This document shows, one piece after another, positions 18,622 to 26,287 of a DNA stretch of 64,000 nt. A program made the translations under genes and the position numbers. The notes under the pieces were generated by a model. It saw nothing but the letters and a program-made list of their open reading frames with translations. It ran no database searches and was not told the DNA's origin. Positions within the stretch are counted from its first letter, which is position 1; each line of letters starts with the position of its first letter. The DNA comes from a virus. Taxonomy: Duplodnaviria > Caudoviricetes. The DNA is taken from positions 10,614 to 74,613 of the IMG/VR virus record IMGVR_UViG_2898597404_000001, one strand, 5' to 3'.

Positions 18622-19485
18622 ATGCCCGAGCCTGCGAGGTGGCTGCGGACGGCCGAAATCCCTCTCGCCGACCTCACCCCGTTCCCTGGGAACGCCCGCC
18701 GCGGCGACGTCCGCATGATCCTGGCCAGCCTCCAGCAGAACGCCCAGTACCGGTCCCTCGTGGTCCGCGACACCGGAGACGGCACCCTCACCGTCCTCAC
18801 CGGCAACCAGACGTACGAGGCCCTGCAGCGGCACGGCCCCGACACCTGCGTCCGCGGCACCGCCGATGCCCCCGGCTGCGCGCTCTGCTCCGAAGGGAAC
18901 TGGCTGGAGACGGCCCGCTGCGAGGTCATCACCTGCGACGACGAGACCGCCAAGCGCATCAACGTCGGCGACAACCGCATCCACGACCTCGGCGGCTACG
19001 ACGACAAGGCCCTGGCCAGCCTCCTGGAGGACCTTCCCGACCTCGGCGGCACCGGCTACAGCAGCGAGGACCTGGACGGCCTCCTGCGCGTGACCGGCAC
19101 GCTCGGCCAGCAGGCCGCGGACTTCCTCACCCCGTTCAGGGACCAGACGATCCCGGCCCCCGGCCAGCCCGCCCCGGCCGGCACCGCCCCGCCGTCCGGA
19201 CTGGCCCCGCTGCAACCCCGGGCCGGGGTCTCCCAGACCATGCAGCCGCCCCCGCAGGCCCCGTACGCGCCGCCCGAGCAGATCACCGCGCCGCACTCGT
19301 CCGCGACCGCCGACTCCCTCGTCCCGGTCCAGTGGACCGTCACCGTCGAGGAGCGGGACCGGATCCGCTCGACCCTCCGCGCGGCCGCCGAGCGGTTCGG
19401 CGCACCGGACGCCTCCACCGCCCTCGTCATGATCATCGACAGCTACGCGGCCACGCTCGCGACCGCCCCCGAGGAGACCCCCTGA
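18622..19485 (+). CDS. ParB/Srx-like N-terminal domain protein
   Basis: IPLADLTPFPGNARRGDV..I.ASL....QYRSLVV...VLTGN.TY.AL...DNR. Confidence 0.8.
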   Translation: MPEPARWLRTAEIPLADLTPFPGNARRGDVRMILASLQQNAQYRSLVVRDTGDGTLTVLTGNQTYEALQRHGPDTCVRGTADAPGCALCSEGNWLETARCEVITCDDETAKRINVGDNRIHDLGGYDDKALASLLEDLPDLGGTGYSSEDLDGLLRVTGTLGQQAADFLTPFRDQTIPAPGQPAPAGTAPPSGLAPLQPRAGVSQTMQPPPQAPYAPPEQITAPHSSATADSLVPVQWTVTVEERDRIRSTLRAAAERFGAPDASTALVMIIDSYAATLATAPEETP

Positions 19486-20003
19486 TGTCCGCACTGCGCA
19501 TCGTGTCCCTGCCCGCCGCCACCGCCGCCGTCCTCGATGGCGGGGTCGCGGTCCACGGAGCCCCCGCCAAGGGCCTCGGGCTCCACCTGTCCGGTGACGG
19601 GCACCTCGGCGCGGACATCATCCACGTCCCCGCAGGCGGCCAGTTCCCGGTCCACACCCACCCCGGCCACCACCTGCTGCTCTGCCTGGAGGGCCTCGGC
19701 ACGATCACCGTCGACGAGGTCGTCCACCAGGTCCGCCCCGGCGACCTCTACATGGTGGACGGGCAGGTCCCGCACGCGGTCGGCGCGGGCGACCGGGACC
19801 ACGTCCTCGTCGCGATCGGCGCACCGCACCGCCCGGTCGACTCACCCGACCGGATGACGTTCACGGACTGGGAGGGCACCCGTCTGGACGAGCCGCTGTT
19901 CCCGCCCCCGGCCCCGGCGCGCAGCACCGGCCGCGGCTCCGGCAAGGGCCGCCACCGCGCCACCGGCCCCGCGACCGGCCCCGCGACCGGCGCGGCGTCG
20001 TGA
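19485..20003 (+). CDS. cupin domain protein
   Basis: FPVHTHPGHH...G...PGD...VPHAV. Confidence 0.85.
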   Translation: MSALRIVSLPAATAAVLDGGVAVHGAPAKGLGLHLSGDGHLGADIIHVPAGGQFPVHTHPGHHLLLCLEGLGTITVDEVVHQVRPGDLYMVDGQVPHAVGAGDRDHVLVAIGAPHRPVDSPDRMTFTDWEGTRLDEPLFPPPAPARSTGRGSGKGRHRATGPATGPATGAAS

Positions 20004-21115
20004 CCGTGCTGAACCTGGCGGAGCGCCGCTGGCCCCCGGTCCCGGACCTCGAGGAAACCCGCCTCATCACGCAGGCCGCCCTGTCCCGCACCTGGACAGA
20101 CGGCCCGTGGACCGAAGAGGTCGAGCACCGCATGACCGAGCTGACCGGGGCCCCGCACGCGGTCGCGTTCAACTCCTGCACCTCCGCCCTCCACGCCGCC
20201 CTCCACGCCATGGGCTGCGCGGCCGGCACCCCCCTGCTCGCCCCCTCGCTCACGTTCACGGGCAGCCTCACCGGCGCCCGCCACATCGGCGCGGACGTCC
20301 ACTGGCGCGACGTCGACCCCGACACCCTCACGATCACCCTCGGCCCGATCGAGGAGGTCGGGACCCTGGTCCTGGCCGTCGACCTCCACGGCGTCCCCCA
20401 CACCATCACCGGCGGGGGAGGCCTGCGGGTCCTCACTGACTCGTGCCAGGCGCTCGGCACCCTGCGGGACGGCCGCCACATCGGCGGCACGGGCACACAC
20501 TGCTGGTCGTTCTCCTCGGCGAAACTCGTCGCCGCCCCGGACGGCGGCGCGGTCACCACCGACGACCCCGACCTCGCCCGCATCCTCCGCCAGCTCCGCG
20601 ACTACGGCGTCTACGCCACCGGCCGGGAACGCTCCAACGGCGTCGTCACCCACCCCGGCGGCCACAACTGGCGGCCCTCCGAGCTGTCCATGGCCATGGT
20701 CGCGCACCGCCTCCAGCGGCTCCCGTACTGGGCCGACCGGGCCCGCCACGCAGCCCGCCGCCTCCACCCGGCCCTGGACCGCCTCGGCTACTGGCGGCAG
20801 CACGCCGCGCCCGGCACCGACCCCGCCTGGCACAAGATCCGCATCGGCCCCCCGGACCAGGACCCCGACGCCGCCCGCCAGCTCGCCCGCCGCCTCGCCG
20901 ACGCCGGAGTCCCCACCCACCGCTGGGGCGCCCACCCCCTCCACCTCCACCCCGTCCACCACACCCGCGACCGGCCCCGGCCGGACCTGCCCGCCACCGC
21001 CCGCGCCGCCGCCGGGACCATCTGCCTCGGCACCGAACGGTGCCCCCCGATGACCTGGACCTGCGACGAGATCGACGAGGTCATCGACACCCTCGACATC
21101 CTCACGGAAGGCTGA
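20000..21115 (+). CDS. DegT/DnrJ/EryC1/StrS family PLP aminotransferase
   Basis: NSCTSAL, DSCQALG, SFSSAKL (PLP lysine), DGGAVTT. Confidence 0.9.
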   Translation: MTVLNLAERRWPPVPDLEETRLITQAALSRTWTDGPWTEEVEHRMTELTGAPHAVAFNSCTSALHAALHAMGCAAGTPLLAPSLTFTGSLTGARHIGADVHWRDVDPDTLTITLGPIEEVGTLVLAVDLHGVPHTITGGGGLRVLTDSCQALGTLRDGRHIGGTGTHCWSFSSAKLVAAPDGGAVTTDDPDLARILRQLRDYGVYATGRERSNGVVTHPGGHNWRPSELSMAMVAHRLQRLPYWADRARHAARRLHPALDRLGYWRQHAAPGTDPAWHKIRIGPPDQDPDAARQLARRLADAGVPTHRWGAHPLHLHPVHHTRDRPRPDLPATARAAAGTICLGTERCPPMTWTCDEIDEVIDTLDILTEG

Positions 21116-24474: not shown

Positions 24475-25781
24475 GCAAGATGGGGCAGCGGCAGTCCCTC
24501 GACCGCGTCACCGTCGACACCGACGTCTACACGCTCGCCTGCGAACGCACCGCCTACGTCCTCGACACCTTCGAGAAGGCGTTCGTCTGGTTCTCCGGCG
24601 GCAAGGACTCCACCGGGGTCCTGAACATCGCCCTGGAGGTGATCCACTCCGATCCCCGGTTCGAGCGGCACCTGCCGCTGCGCACGGTCTTCTACGACGA
24701 GGAGGCCATCCCCTACGAGACCGAGGAGTACGTGCGCCGCACCGCCCAGCGGCCCGACGTCGACCTGGAGTGGTACTGCCTCCCCGTCAAGCACCGCAAC
24801 GCCTGCTCCCGCACCAGCCCCTACTGGTGGCCATGGGCGCCCGAAGCCGAGGAGAAGTGGTGCCGGCCGCTGCCCCCGGAGGCGATCACCACCCTCCCAG
24901 GCTTCCCGATCAACCCTCCGGAGGCCCGCCTCACCGCCCCCGACGCGAACGGCCTCTTCTGCCCCGGCCGCGGCAACACGGCCATGCTCATGGGAATCCG
25001 CGCCCAGGAGTCACCGGTCCGCCGCAAAGCCGTCACCCGCCGCAAGGTCGACAACTACATCATCGGCTACAACGGCCCCACCAGCCGCGGCAACGCCTGG
25101 AAGGTGTACCCCCTCTACGACTGGCGCACCGAGGACGTCTGGACGGCGGCCGCGCTCAACGGCTGGGACTACAACCGGGCCTACGACCGCATGGAGATGC
25201 TCGGCATCCCGCACTTCCAGCAGCGGTGCAGCCCCGCGTTCGGTGAGGAGCCCCTGACCAAGATCGGCATGTTCGCGGCGTGCTTCCCCGAGGTCTGGGA
25301 GAAGATGGCCGAACGCGTCCCCGGCATCGGCGCCGCCCACCGCTACGCCCTGACCGAGCTGTACGGCTACGGCTCCCGCCCCGCCAAGCCGGACGGCATC
25401 CCCTGGCCCGGCTTCATCGTCCACTACCTGCAGATGTTCCGGCCCGCCGAACAGGTCCACGTGAGCGGCCGCATCAACGAGACCATCCGCCGCCACTACA
25501 AGGTCACCACGCACCCGATCCTGCCCAAGTCCCGCCACCCGCAGACCGGCGTCTCCTGGGACTTCCTCCTCACGCTGGCGATGAGGGGCGACTTCAAAAA
25601 GCGCCGGCAGGAGATGAGCGCACTCGACCCCGACCAGAAGGCCCGCCAGTGGCGCGCCTACGCCTCCGAACTCGCCCGCGTCCTCGCCGCCGGGATCCCC
25701 CCCGAGGAACTCGGCCACCCCCGCGCCCTCCCCACCGACCCGCAGTCCGTGATCCCCGACGAGCACCGGGAGCCCCGATGA
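24471..25781 (+). CDS. IbrA-like PAPS reductase family protein (DUF3440-type)
   Basis: FSGGKDS, DEEA, GIRAQES..R, YPLYDWRTEDVW, YNRAYD, QRC..FG. Confidence 0.85.
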   Translation: MSKMGQRQSLDRVTVDTDVYTLACERTAYVLDTFEKAFVWFSGGKDSTGVLNIALEVIHSDPRFERHLPLRTVFYDEEAIPYETEEYVRRTAQRPDVDLEWYCLPVKHRNACSRTSPYWWPWAPEAEEKWCRPLPPEAITTLPGFPINPPEARLTAPDANGLFCPGRGNTAMLMGIRAQESPVRRKAVTRRKVDNYIIGYNGPTSRGNAWKVYPLYDWRTEDVWTAAALNGWDYNRAYDRMEMLGIPHFQQRCSPAFGEEPLTKIGMFAACFPEVWEKMAERVPGIGAAHRYALTELYGYGSRPAKPDGIPWPGFIVHYLQMFRPAEQVHVSGRINETIRRHYKVTTHPILPKSRHPQTGVSWDFLLTLAMRGDFKKRRQEMSALDPDQKARQWRAYASELARVLAAGIPPEELGHPRALPTDPQSVIPDEHREPR

Positions 25782-26287
25782 CCGACGTCAGCAGCCAGCC
25801 CGTCTCCAACGTCGAATGGGTCGAGCGCGAGAAGCTGACCGCGAACTCCTGGAACCCCAACCGGCAGGCCCCGCCGGAGAGCCGCCTGCTCCGCGTCTCG
25901 ATCCTGGAGAACGGCTGGACCCAGCCCATCGTGACCCGCCAGGAGCCCGGCGGCCTGGAGATCGTCGACGGCTACCACCGCTGGGTCTCCTCCGAGCACC
26001 GCGACCTCCAGGCGTTCACCGACGGCCTGGTCCCCGTCGTTGTCCTCCCGCCCACCGACCCCGCACTGGCCCGCCTCGCCACCATCCGCCACAACCGGGC
26101 CAGGGGCACGCACCACGTCCTCGGCATGGCCGACATCGTCGCCGAGCTCCTCCAGCTCGGCCTCACCCCCAAGGACCTCGGCACCCGGCTGGAGATGGAC
26201 TCCGAGGAGGTCGAGCGCTTGGCCGACCGGGGCGACATGCTCAAGCGTGCCGGCCGCGACGGCTACAACAACGGCTGGACCGTCTGA
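25778..26287 (+). CDS. IbrB-like ParB N-terminal domain protein
   Basis: QPVSNVEWV, NSWNPN, GWTQPIV, IVDGYHR, TIRHNRARGTH. Confidence 0.88.
   Translation: MTDVSSQPVSNVEWVEREKLTANSWNPNRQAPPESRLLRVSILENGWTQPIVTRQEPGGLEIVDGYHRWVSSEHRDLQAFTDGLVPVVVLPPTDPALARLATIRHNRARGTHHVLGMADIVAELLQLGLTPKDLGTRLEMDSEEVERLADRGDMLKRAGRDGYNNGWTV

What the first reader, a model, noticed from the sequence alone, without database searches (positions are those of the whole stretch)
18622..26287. Phage-borne inositol/amino-sugar modification cluster (ParB-cupin-DegT-Ino1-GT25x2-CysH-IbrA-IbrB)
Seen: nine tightly coupled genes between the array and the head genes. Established: Ino1 makes myo-inositol-1-phosphate from glucose-6-phosphate; DegT enzymes aminate keto-sugars and inososes (StrS-type in aminocyclitol pathways); ParB-N and PAPS-reductase-family proteins recur in DNA-modification loci (DndC-like, IbrAB); some actinophages glycosylate their virions. 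Inference: an undescribed DNA hypermodification or virion glycosylation using an (amino)cyclitol. No phosphatase or dehydrogenase is visible, so host enzymes or new chemistry would be needed.
Basis: partly seen in the sequence, partly recalled or inferred. Interest (0 to 1): 0.78.

Follow-up and report, generated by a model that had tools for sequence, protein, structure and literature searches.

The report
Phage aminocyclitol supply for DNA-modification cassette
A prophage carries, just ahead of its DNA-packaging genes, an inositol-phosphate synthase and an aminotransferase wired into a widespread but never-characterised enzyme cassette, and the same two genes also sit inside a proven phage DNA-modification operon elsewhere, so the phage probably decorates its DNA with an amino-inositol, a chemistry not yet described.

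Summary
The nine genes are real, at the stated coordinates, tightly coupled (6 of 8 junctions overlap) and open the late operon of a siphovirus-type prophage. Eight of the nine labels hold. "CysH" is a PP-loop enzyme of the PAPS-reductase fold with no conserved cysteine, so it is not CysH.

The cluster is one version of a widespread phage cassette: two PP-loop enzymes (g7, IbrA) and two ParB-like proteins, often with a cupin. Next to it sits an interchangeable supply module. In 33 loci this was a membrane importer (20, one also with DegT+Ino1), a glutamine amidotransferase directly after g7 (5), or DegT+Ino1 (5, including the window).

DegT+Ino1 also sits between CmoX/CmoY-like and CmoA genes in two other viral contigs. 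That operon type is shown experimentally to put carboxymethyl on DNA cytosine and ligate an amine to it.

Best reading (about 0.45): Ino1 and DegT make an aminocyclitol. The PP-loop enzymes attach it to phage DNA before packaging, and two GT25 enzymes extend it. Neither target nor chemistry is shown.

No dehydrogenase or phosphatase occurs in any of the 7 DegT+Ino1 operons. The phage Ino1 clade carries substitutions beside two catalytic lysines.

Caveat: many Actinomadura/Spirillospora contigs carry this DegT+Ino1 pair in contexts I could not see.

The parts
18622..19485 (+). g1: ParB-N-like protein (287 aa), first gene of the operon. The box is 'TGNQT' where IbrB has 'DGYHR'. A Pro-rich linker and a small C-terminal domain follow.
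   Evidence: phrog_723 1.5e-39 and no Pfam hit. Homologues lie upstream of the cassette in L004-L006, L014, L026, L038 and L185. Motif alignment.
19485..20003 (+). g2: metal-binding cupin (172 aa; alternative start at 19503).
   Evidence: Cupin_2 1.8e-12. It is 64-66% identical to the cupin directly before g7 in the amidotransferase versions L014 and L026, so it belongs to the machinery and not to inositol chemistry.
20000..21115 (+). g3: DegT/DnrJ/EryC1/StrS aminotransferase (371 aa). The 'SFSSAK' lysine is present.
   Evidence: PF01041 2.5e-54. Best solved relatives are ArnB 3e-28 and glutamine-scyllo-inositol transaminase 7b0d 2e-21. It forms a clade of 69 clusters at >=40% identity, followed by a drop to <=34%.
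21126..22253 (+). g4: myo-inositol-1-phosphate synthase homologue (375 aa) of a distinct phage/prophage clade.
   Evidence: PF01658 1.6e-31. TIGR03450 gives 385 bits, under its cut-off of 638. Against 1GR0 the E-value is 3e-109. The clade has 65 rows with SH-aLRT 100 and a stem of 0.64; the host's own Ino1 lies elsewhere in the tree. There are 11 clade-specific substitutions.
22257..23000 (+). g5: GT25-like GT-A glycosyltransferase (247 aa) with motif 'LEDDAV'.
   Evidence: phrog_2835 1.9e-5. Profile A4 against the PDB hits COLGALT1 at 3.6e-8. It is 27% identical to the L003 GT25 gene.
22997..23671 (+). g6: second GT25-like glycosyltransferase (224 aa), 49% identical to g5.
23668..24474 (+). 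g7: small PP-loop ATP pyrophosphatase of the PAPS-reductase fold (268 aa) with 'SGGKDS' and no conserved Cys. Proposed amine-coupling enzyme.
   Evidence: phrog_424 1.5e-8. The model has pLDDT 96.4. Best Foldseek matches are PAPS reductases, TtuA, the GMP synthetase ATPPase and FMN adenylyltransferase. A class II glutamine amidotransferase follows it directly in 5 of 5 amidotransferase versions.
24471..25781 (+). g8: IbrA-like protein (436 aa), a PP-loop domain plus the helical DUF3440 region.
   Evidence: PAPS_reduct 7.7e-12; DUF3440 22.7 bits; phrog_2302 1.6e-76. The model has pLDDT 85.3. Its N-domain is nearest to FAD synthase/FMN adenylyltransferase, APS/PAPS reductases and CysD.
25778..26287 (+). 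g9: IbrB-like ParB-N protein (169 aa) with 'DGYHR' followed by a helix-turn-helix-like stretch.
   Evidence: ParB_N 6.6e-6; phrog_2159 2.3e-55. Sequence; motif alignment.

Best explanation
The nine genes are a late-expressed DNA-hypermodification module built from two parts.

**Part 1, the machinery (g1, g2, g7, g8, g9).** This is a widespread phage cassette of two ParB-like proteins, a cupin and two PP-loop ATP pyrophosphatases (g7 and IbrA). It sits directly before the terminase genes in many unrelated phages.

**Part 2, the supply module (g3 DegT, g4 Ino1).** It makes an amino-cyclitol. Ino1 cyclises glucose-6-phosphate. The ketone that DegT aminates comes either from host inositol monophosphatase plus inositol dehydrogenase, or from altered chemistry of this diverged Ino1.

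**Proposed action.** g7 uses ATP to activate an acceptor group and couples the amino-cyclitol to it. In sister cassettes the same step would use glutamine-derived ammonia or an imported compound. IbrA/IbrB with the ParB proteins provide the DNA-directed step. The two GT25 enzymes then add sugars to the cyclitol.

**Shown:** the gene identities, the coupling, the conservation, the swap of supply modules, and the presence of DegT+Ino1 in CmoX/CmoY/CmoA operons.

**Inferred:** that the product is an aminocyclitol, that g7 is the ligase, that DNA is the target, and that the GT25s act on the adduct.
For: 1. **Operon and position.** Six of 8 junctions overlap. The cluster follows a terminator-like hairpin at 18474-18521 and precedes the Mu-F-like head gene, terS, TerL and portal.
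2. **Conserved core.** ParB, DegT, Ino1, g7, IbrA and IbrB followed by terS are kept in 4 viral contigs at 38-71% identity. One of these is the same element as a Streptomyces sp. NRRL B-1347 contig.
3. **Swappable supply module.** The 33 g7-bearing loci (some are near-duplicates) split as follows. Counts other than DegT+Ino1 leave out L003, which has both DegT+Ino1 and an SSF symporter.
   - DegT+Ino1: 5
   - class II glutamine amidotransferase directly after g7: 5
   - SSF symporter: 7 (41% identical between an actinobacterial-type and a Prevotellaceae phage)
   - a 7-TM SSF-like family: 10
   - ABC permease plus NMT1 binding protein: 2
   - SET and/or Ldh_2: 2
   - none seen: 2

4. **The cupin is shared across versions.** It is 64-66% identical between the DegT/Ino1 and the amidotransferase versions.
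5. **Independent link to DNA.** L166 and L185 carry a C5-DNA-methylase homologue, an Asn-synthetase-type PP-loop ligase, DegT, Ino1 and a CmoA homologue, next to packaging genes. The methylase homologue's best solved hit is SpCmoX 8yf3 at 9e-62, with the GSPPC motif. The CmoA homologue's best hits are YecO/CmoA at 8.5e-31. L185 also has a ParB-like gene. PMC12783734 (passages and section 13 read) shows that CmoX makes 5-carboxymethylcytosine in DNA and CmoY ligates glycine to it. It also reports that other CmoY clusters carry an amidotransferase domain, that further amine substrates are unidentified, and that ParB-domain proteins are frequent neighbours.
6. **PP-loop motifs.** g7 and IbrA keep SGGKDS. 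The nearest solved ATP-using relatives transfer AMP to an oxyanion: FMN adenylyltransferase and CysD.
7. **Precedent for glycosyltransferases.** Sequential phage glycosyltransferases on DNA adducts, with ParB-like neighbours, are reported in bioRxiv 10.1101/2023.12.21.572611 (passages).
8. **Host enzymes exist.** The host has 6 IMPase-family genes over the cut-off and two IolG-like genes at 299 and 289 bits, under the cut-off of 355.
Against: - No experiment or computation here shows that DNA is the target.
- No CmoX or CmoA homologue is in the window or in L003-L006, so the acceptor 'handle' is unknown.
- No dehydrogenase or phosphatase is encoded, so the route from inositol phosphate to a DegT substrate is a gap.
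- DegT's nearest solved relatives are sugar-nucleotide aminotransferases (ArnB 3e-28) as much as inosose aminotransferases.
- GT25 enzymes of known function act on lipo-oligosaccharide or protein hydroxylysine, not DNA (recalled).
- ParB/Srx-fold proteins include small-molecule kinases (recalled), so ParB does not prove DNA.
- Many Actinomadura/Spirillospora contigs carry clade Ino1 and DegT but no listed g7 homologue. I could not see their contexts, so the pair is not tied only to this cassette.
- The amidotransferase sits after g7 while DegT+Ino1 sits before it, so the 'swap' is not slot-for-slot.
Confidence: 0.45

Rival explanations
1. The cassette acts on something other than DNA. For example, it builds a free nucleotide-cyclitol conjugate such as ADP- or NDP-inosamine or a small pseudo-oligosaccharide, or it modifies RNA or the nucleotide pool. 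The ParB/Srx proteins would then act as kinases or NTPases rather than DNA binders.
For: Both PP-loop enzymes are nearest to enzymes that adenylylate small oxyanions: FMN adenylyltransferase and CysD. L003 has a MobA-like nucleotidyltransferase right after Ino1. By the Atlas it resembles inositol-phosphate/phosphocholine cytidylyltransferase clusters (score 0.98, TM 0.79), which points to a nucleotide-activated cyclitol. Importers and an aldehyde dehydrogenase in sister cassettes look like small-molecule metabolism.
Against: The cassette is placed before the terminase in many unrelated phages. IbrB has a helix-turn-helix-like stretch after its ParB-N domain. DegT+Ino1 sits inside CmoX/CmoY/CmoA operons that act on DNA. 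A nucleotide-activated cyclitol could equally be the donor for a DNA adduct.
Confidence: 0.2
2. The genes are two unrelated things that happen to be neighbours. Ino1 (with DegT) would be an auxiliary metabolic gene that boosts host inositol for mycothiol or phosphatidylinositol. IbrA/IbrB would be late-gene regulators, as their E. coli name 'co-activators of prophage gene expression' suggests.
For: IMG/VR holds 287 Ino1-like stretches. Of the 76 non-clade loci kept, 0 carry g7, IbrA or IbrB, so phages carry Ino1 for other reasons too. The only phenotype known for IbrA/IbrB is a regulatory one (recalled).
Against: DegT and Ino1 are adjacent in 7 of 7 operons and embedded between cassette genes, not at its edge. 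The clade is separated from cellular Ino1 by a long, fully supported branch and carries substitutions next to catalytic lysines. The pairing recurs with a second, unrelated PP-loop ligase.
Confidence: 0.12
3. Virion glycosylation: the GT25 enzymes and the cyclitol pathway decorate capsid or tail proteins.
For: The cluster adjoins the head genes. The nearest solved relatives of g5/g6 include a protein glycosyltransferase (COLGALT1) and mimivirus R655. Actinophage virions can be glycosylated (recalled).
Against: GT25 genes are absent from 3 of the 5 clade loci, which keep everything else. Nothing in the core is a protein-modifying enzyme. The PP-loop/ParB core occurs in many phages without any glycosyltransferase.
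Confidence: 0.08
4. A Dnd/Ssp-like sulfur (phosphorothioate) modification of the DNA backbone, made by the PAPS-reductase-family enzymes, with DegT/Ino1 unrelated.
For: g8 gives weak NCBIfam hits to DndC (1.6e-6, 27 bits against a cut-off of 290). ParB-like DndB accompanies Dnd systems (PMC12839542, passages).
Against: There is no invariant cysteine in 25 g7 or 24 IbrA homologues. No cysteine desulfurase, DndD or DndE turned up in the Pfam scans of the nine cluster proteins or of 58 other proteins called across the window; the TerL-to-tail genes (28274-46966) were scanned with PHROGs only.
Confidence: 0.05

Closest known systems
CmoA/CmoX/CmoY cytosine hypermodification of Synechococcus phage S-B43 (PMC12783734)
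   Same: It has two-stage logic with an ATP-dependent, AMP-forming PP-loop-superfamily ligase that couples a variable amine: glycine, glutamine-derived ammonia, and others not yet identified. ParB-domain neighbours are common. Two viral contigs (L166, L185) of this operon type contain the same DegT+Ino1 pair.
   Different: The window has no CmoX or CmoA. Its ligase candidates are PAPS-reductase-fold proteins, not asparagine-synthetase-type. The acceptor group is unknown.
IbrA/IbrB pairs (E. coli ECOR-9; K-12 paralogues YbdN/YbdM; phage phrog_2302 + phrog_2159)
   Same: g8 and g9 match these families strongly (1.6e-76 and 2.3e-55) and are adjacent and overlapping.
   Different: No biochemistry is in print in the searched library. 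Here the pair comes with a second PP-loop enzyme, a second ParB, a cupin and a biosynthetic supply module.
Aminocyclitol biosynthesis in actinomycete antibiotic pathways (Ino1, phosphatase, inositol dehydrogenase, StsC/BtrS-type DegT aminotransferase; recalled)
   Same: Ino1 and a DegT-family aminotransferase are encoded side by side.
   Different: No phosphatase, dehydrogenase, GT4 or other pathway enzyme is present. The setting is a phage late operon. The Ino1 is a separate clade with an altered active-site neighbourhood.
Gat-QueC/QueC in phage 7-deazaguanine DNA modification (recalled; context seen in phage Moby)
   Same: A PP-loop enzyme, with or without an amidotransferase, finishes a DNA base modification. 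Ino1 homologues sit next to QueC, FolE, DpdA or QueE genes in Moby, L158, L165, L174, L182 and L183.
   Different: It uses a different PP-loop family. There are no deazaguanine genes in the window and no DegT in those loci.
Sequential glycosyltransferases on phage DNA (bioRxiv 10.1101/2023.12.21.572611)
   Same: Paired GT-A/GT-B enzymes extend a DNA adduct, and ParB-like genes are nearby (passages).
   Different: Those act on 5-hydroxymethylcytosine made by MTase+TET or thymidylate-synthase homologues, none of which is here. The terms GT25 and 'family 25' do not occur in that paper's main text.

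Membership tests
myo-inositol-1-phosphate synthase (Ino1/MIPS) | Pfam PF01658 domain over the gathering score | tested here: met
   109.1 bits against a cut-off of 27.
myo-inositol-1-phosphate synthase (Ino1/MIPS) | NCBIfam equivalog TIGR03450 over its curated cut-off | tested here: not met
   384.8 bits against a cut-off of 638, so g4 is a diverged member and not the standard actinobacterial orthologue.
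myo-inositol-1-phosphate synthase (Ino1/MIPS) | The four residues reported essential in M. tuberculosis Ino1 (D197, K284, D310, K346; residue list recalled) | tested here: met
   They align to g4 D198, K285, D311 and K347. All four are invariant in the 33 clade sequences of alignment A3. The neighbours R284->T and S348->A differ from cellular Ino1.
myo-inositol-1-phosphate synthase (Ino1/MIPS) | Converts glucose-6-phosphate to inositol phosphate | not testable with these tools
   An enzyme assay is needed.
DegT/DnrJ/EryC1/StrS aminotransferases | Pfam PF01041 over the full length, and the PLP-binding lysine | tested here: met
   185.3 bits over residues 18-364. A lysine lies in 'SFSSAK'; the motif position is recalled.
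DegT/DnrJ/EryC1/StrS aminotransferases | Inosose rather than sugar-nucleotide substrate | tested here: inconclusive
   Solved relatives of both kinds match: ArnB 3e-28, scyllo-inositol transaminase 2e-21 and BtrR-type 3e-12.
Glycosyltransferase family 25 | Pfam PF01755 over the gathering score | tested here: not met
   g5 and g6 have no Pfam hit at E<=0.01. Their L003 homologues do pass, at 28.7 and 31.7 bits against 24.
Glycosyltransferase family 25 | Profile similarity to solved GT25 enzymes, and a DxD-type motif | tested here: met
   Profile A4 hits COLGALT1 at 3.6e-8 and GT25 8xlz at 1e-3. E99-D100-D101 is invariant.
PAPS reductase (CysH) | PP-loop fold | tested here: met
   g7 has SGGKDS. 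Foldseek's best matches are PAPS reductases at E 2e-6 with TM 0.49-0.62.
PAPS reductase (CysH) | Conserved catalytic cysteine (C-terminal ECGLH-type; recalled) | tested here: not met
   No invariant or nearly invariant Cys occurs among the 25 g7 homologues.
IbrA/IbrB pair | A PAPS_reduct + DUF3440 protein next to a ParB-N protein | tested here: met
   PAPS_reduct 46 bits. DUF3440 is at 22.7 bits, just under its cut-off of 25. phrog_2302 1.6e-76 and phrog_2159 2.3e-55. The genes overlap by 4 nt.
CmoX/CmoY/CmoA system | A C5-MTase homologue with the SPPC motif, a CmoA, and an Asn-synthetase-type ligase | tested here: not met
   There is no tblastn hit of the L166 CmoX, CmoA or ligase in the window at E<=1e-5. 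The features are met in L166 and L185.
Dnd/Ssp phosphorothioation | Cysteine desulfurase, DndD/E-type partners, and conserved cysteines in the PP-loop enzyme | tested here: not met
   None was found in the Pfam scans of the nine cluster proteins and 58 other called proteins of the window; the TerL-to-tail genes were scanned with PHROGs only. There is no invariant Cys. The DndC model scores 27 bits against a cut-off of 290.

The most novel reading that the evidence does not exclude
Phage DNA carries a glycosylated aminocyclitol, an aminoglycoside-like pseudo-oligosaccharide. A diverged Ino1 and a DegT make it without a separate dehydrogenase or phosphatase. The uncharacterised twin PP-loop/IbrA-IbrB machine installs it after replication. 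That machine would be a general 'amine-onto-DNA' ligase platform whose nucleophile is set by a plug-in supply module (ammonia, imported solute or aminocyclitol). The same aminocyclitol would be the unidentified amine of some CmoY ligases.
Probability: 0.3. Interest if true: 0.9.

Novelty: new variant of a known kind. Interest (0 to 1): 0.78.

Why it matters
IbrA/IbrB-type 'PAPS reductase + ParB' cassettes are among the commonest unexplained gene sets in phage late operons, and virome papers often count them as sulfur metabolism.

This window gives a handle on their chemistry. Here the variable neighbour is a recognisable two-enzyme pathway, and it also occurs in an operon type whose DNA chemistry is known. 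That yields concrete, cheap tests: look for an inosamine adduct, with g7 as the amine ligase.

It also offers a candidate for the 'unidentified amine substrates' of CmoY ligases.

If true, it adds cyclitols to the repertoire of natural DNA modifications and suggests a new anti-restriction strategy in actinophages.

Tried and rejected
- **The metagenome scan** with g4 returned almost only cellular Ino1. One of 80 loci was of the phage clade, on a 1.8-kb contig, so it gave no new context.
- **Whole-genome sampling** found the cassette or the clade genes almost nowhere:
  - g7: 1 of 400 family genomes and 0 of 400 class genomes
  - clade DegT: 0 of 400 family genomes
  - clade Ino1: 0 of 400 class genomes
  
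  Only 4-6 candidates per genome were scored, so weak copies could be missed.
- **blastn against phage records** found only ParB fragments and the Moby Ino1.
- **tRNA, Rfam and consensus scans** gave nothing useful. No tRNAs were found. Rfam had no hit on the array. The promoter/terminator consensus scan was uninformative.
- **Deazaguanine or hydroxymethyl-pyrimidine pathways** were rejected for the window. No TGT/DpdA, QueC/D/E, FolE or thymidylate-synthase homologue turned up in the Pfam scans of the called genes.
- **Matching 'longest contig' lengths** between homologue lists was used only as a rough proxy. It under-counts: L005's contig has g7 but is not listed.
- **The Ino1 tree** is the quick tree only. 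The careful search did not finish, and the clade label was set beforehand by identity (>=63%).

Full report
**Setting.** The window is 72% G+C. It lies on contig C28 of a 9.65-Mb, 43-contig actinobacterial genome. Most of it is a siphovirus-type prophage. Downstream of the finding lie a Mu-F-like head-morphogenesis gene, terS, TerL, portal, scaffold, major capsid, tail, tape-measure and minor tail genes. Upstream lie about 25 small genes of unknown function and a 1.8-kb non-coding repeat array.

**Observation.** A GC3 frame plot, a start-codon listing and a GC3-based gene call give nine + strand genes at exactly 18622-26287. Six of the 8 junctions overlap by 1-4 nt; the other two are gaps of 10 and 3 nt.

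Pfam names 5 of 9 proteins: cupin, DegT, Ino1, PAPS_reduct + DUF3440, and ParB_N. PHROGs names 8 of 9, including ParB-like for g1 (1.5e-39), IbrA-type phrog_2302 (1.6e-76) and IbrB-type phrog_2159 (2.3e-55).

g5 and g6 have no Pfam hit. Their homologues in L003 pass the GT25 cut-off. A profile of the four sequences hits procollagen galactosyltransferase 1 (3.6e-8), mimivirus R655 (7e-8) and a solved GT25 protein (1e-3), with an invariant E-D-D.

Its model has pLDDT 96.4 and is nearest to PAPS reductases, TtuA, a GMP synthetase ATPPase subunit and FMN adenylyltransferases. No cysteine is conserved among 25 homologues, so it is not a PAPS reductase in function.

**Conservation.** A viral-contig scan with g4 found four loci.
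- L004, L005 and L006 keep ParB, (GP88), ParB, DegT, Ino1, g7, IbrA (one or two copies), IbrB, a 241-aa protein, terS and TerL. They lack the cupin and the GT25 genes.
- L006 is the same element as a Streptomyces sp. NRRL B-1347 contig.
- L003 has ParB, ParB, a sodium:solute symporter, DegT, Ino1, a MobA-like nucleotidyltransferase (by the Atlas only: score 0.98, TM 0.79), two GT25 genes, g7, IbrA, IbrB, terS and TerL.

So the core is ParB, DegT, Ino1, g7, IbrA and IbrB. The cupin and the glycosyltransferases are optional.

**The cluster is one version of a larger cassette family.** Scans with an alignment of g7 gave 4 genome loci, 28 viral loci and one genome hit among 400 of the family. In 33 loci, some of them near-duplicates, IbrA accompanies g7 in 31 and IbrB in 30. 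The cassette usually sits just before terS/TerL.

The gene(s) beside g7 vary. L003, which has both DegT+Ino1 and an SSF symporter, is counted under DegT+Ino1 only.

| Neighbour of g7 | Loci (of 33) | Basis |
|---|---|---|
| 7-TM membrane family weakly like the symporter | 10 | |
| SSF symporter (41% identical between L003 and a Prevotellaceae prophage) | 7 | |
| DegT+Ino1 | 5 | |
| Class II glutamine amidotransferase directly after g7 (once with an aldehyde dehydrogenase) | 5 | |
| ABC permease + NMT1-type binding protein | 2 | |
| SET and/or Ldh_2 | 2 | |
| Nothing seen | 2 | |

The cupin g2 is 64-66% identical to the cupin that directly precedes g7 in two amidotransferase versions. It therefore belongs to the machinery.

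Earlier notes of this scan describe the same cassette class with importers, a cupin and an amidotransferase version. I used them as leads and re-derived the pattern from my own loci.

**An independent link to DNA.** IMG/VR holds 287 Ino1-like stretches. Of the 76 kept loci outside the clade, none has g7, IbrA or IbrB. Two of them, L166 and L185, have the following order, followed by packaging genes and a portal:
1. a C5-cytosine DNA methylase homologue
2. an asparagine-synthetase-type PP-loop ligase
3. DegT
4. Ino1
5. a class I methyltransferase

L166 also has a weak UDG-like gene, and L185 has a ParB-like gene upstream.

The methylase homologue's best solved match is 8yf3 at 9e-62 (M.HaeIII scores 1.5e-29), and it has the GSPPC motif. 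The class I methyltransferase's best matches are YecO/CmoA at 8.5e-31.

PMC12783734 (passages and section 13 read) shows that CmoA makes carboxy-SAM, CmoX puts carboxymethyl on DNA cytosine, and the Asn-synthetase-like CmoY ligates glycine to it. The same paper reports that another CmoY cluster carries an amidotransferase domain, that further amine substrates are unidentified, and that ParB-domain proteins are common neighbours. Its main text and four supplementary files do not contain 'inositol' or 'aminotransferase'; 'DegT' and 'PAPS', searched in the supplementary files only, are also absent.

DegT+Ino1 thus sits inside a proven DNA-hypermodification operon type, at the place where an amine supply would be expected. 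The twin PP-loop cassette shows the same trio of alternatives: ammonia from glutamine, another supplied compound, or DegT+Ino1.

**The Ino1 and DegT themselves.** g4 is about 53% identical to M. tuberculosis Ino1 (1GR0, 3e-109) and 50% to the host's own Ino1. It scores 385 bits on the actinobacterial equivalog model against a cut-off of 638.

A homologue search lists 61 clusters at >=63% identity, from Actinomadura, Spirillospora, Streptomyces, Nocardiopsaceae and metagenomes. Identity then drops to 58% and 54% or less. In a quick tree of 107 rows these form one clade (65 rows, SH-aLRT 100, stem 0.64). The host's own Ino1 groups with cellular ones, and the Moby-type phage Ino1s form a separate distant clade. 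Two cautions apply: the clade label was set by identity beforehand, and the careful tree search did not finish.

The four residues recalled as essential in the M. tuberculosis enzyme are kept. Eleven positions are fixed differently from cellular Ino1, including:
- R->T next to K285
- S->A next to K347
- S->D at 259
- Q->E at 27

L185's Ino1 shares 5 of the 11, L166's shares 1, and Moby's shares none.

DegT shows the same distribution: 69 clusters at >=40% identity, then 34% or less. Twenty-five 'longest contig' lengths are shared with the Ino1 list, a rough proxy for co-location.

**The gap.** None of the 7 DegT+Ino1 operons (window, L003-L006, L166, L185) encodes a dehydrogenase or phosphatase. 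The host has six IMPase-family genes and two IolG-like genes at 299 and 289 bits, under the cut-off of 355. Host completion is therefore possible. The recurrent two-gene module and the altered Ino1 site keep 'new chemistry' open.

**What the PP-loop enzymes might do.** The IbrA model has pLDDT 85.3. Its N-domain is nearest to the human FAD synthase PAPS-like domain, FMN adenylyltransferases, APS/PAPS reductases and CysD; the helical C-terminal half found no match. The ATP-using members of this fold add AMP to a phosphate or sulfate oxygen.

In every amidotransferase version g7 is followed directly by the amidotransferase. This is the arrangement of amide- or amidine-forming synthetases. I therefore propose g7 as the enzyme that couples the nitrogen nucleophile, and IbrA/IbrB with the ParB proteins as the DNA-directed part. 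This is inference.

g9 has 'DGYHR' followed by a helix-turn-helix-like stretch. g1-type ParBs have 'GN(H/Q/N)T' instead.

**Caveats.**
- No result shows DNA as the target.
- The acceptor group is unknown. No CmoX or CmoA occurs in the window or in L003-L006.
- Many long Actinomadura/Spirillospora contigs carry clade Ino1 and DegT but no listed g7 homologue, and I could not view their contexts. The proxy under-counts, because L005's contig has g7 but is not listed.
- The cassette is rare in sampled genomes.
- A complex prediction for g7 with IbrA was not available.

**Prior description.** Searches for IbrA/IbrB, YbdN/YbdM, DUF3440, PAPS reductase with ParB, and inositol with phage DNA modification or hypermodification found nothing on the biochemistry of this cassette or on a cyclitol DNA modification. 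In PMC13326640, 'inositol' occurs only in the names of structural homologues. The library lacks most subscription journals.

**Verdict.** The finding is a new variant of a known kind, phage DNA hypermodification. It has unusual explanatory value for a very common, uncharacterised cassette.

Noticed in passing
window 16683-18500: This is a non-coding array of a 28-nt repeat (GCCCGAGCCGGGGCYTCGTACCGGCGAC) with a period of 46-48 nt and 18-20-nt variable spacers. There are 25 copies at up to 3 mismatches, all on the + strand and none elsewhere in the window. The repeat can form a short hairpin. A strong inverted repeat at 18474-18521 follows the array. No tRNA or Rfam match was found. The array is not present in the flanks of L004-L006.
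   Followed up: partly
L166 5467-11340; L185 5599-10732: Two viral contigs carry CmoX-like, CmoY-like, DegT, Ino1 and CmoA-like genes next to packaging genes. L166 also has a weak UDG-like gene and L185 a ParB-like gene. They are candidates for an aminocyclitol amide of 5-carboxymethylcytosine, an 'unidentified amine' case of PMC12783734.
   Followed up: partly
L007 (Stenotrophomonas phage Moby) 6322-11736; L158, L165, L174, L182, L183; 15 further loci: In T4-like and other large phages a distant Ino1 homologue sits among FolE, QueC, DpdA and QueE genes, or directly after a QueC-like gene. In 15 loci plus Moby it is followed directly by a conserved protein of about 120 aa with no Pfam family. 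This is a third setting where a phage Ino1 sits beside a PP-loop enzyme of a DNA-modification pathway.
   Followed up: partly
L003 4983-6533 and L011 6807-8267; L009, L023, L024, L028, L031, L033, L034: A phage-borne sodium:solute symporter is 41% identical between an actinobacterial-type and a Prevotellaceae phage. A related 7-TM protein family (40-83% identical among its members, no Pfam hit) sits directly before g7 homologues.
   Followed up: partly
L039 7678-9110; L030 5901-6299: SET-domain proteins occur inside or beside twin PP-loop cassettes of high-G+C viral contigs, in L039 together with an Ldh_2-family dehydrogenase.
   Followed up: no
window 57211-57495: A Tad2-like (Thoeris anti-defence 2) domain protein: PF11195, 1.9e-20.
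   Followed up: no
window 9480-10667 and 16098-16667: An N6 DNA methylase-like protein (PF02384, 9.8e-6), and a weak ArdC-N-like anti-restriction match (5.4e-4, under its cut-off) in the last gene before the array.
   Followed up: no
window 26359-26547 (- strand): A 62-aa reverse-strand ORF with strong coding GC3 (0.97) sits alone between IbrB and the head-morphogenesis gene. A promoter-like site lies at 26615-26586.
   Followed up: no
window 51733-52403 and 53223-53780 (- strand): A prokaryotic JAB-domain protein next to a DUF6221 protein, and an Rv2179c-like 3'-5' exoribonuclease domain protein, lie in the region beyond the tail genes.
   Followed up: no
g4 positions 27, 259, 284, 348 (window 21126-22253): Clade-specific substitutions lie beside two catalytic lysines of Ino1 (R->T284, S->A348), along with S->D259 and Q->E27. 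Five of the 11 clade-specific substitutions are shared by the CmoXY-linked Ino1 of L185. Their meaning for substrate or product is unexplained.
   Followed up: partly
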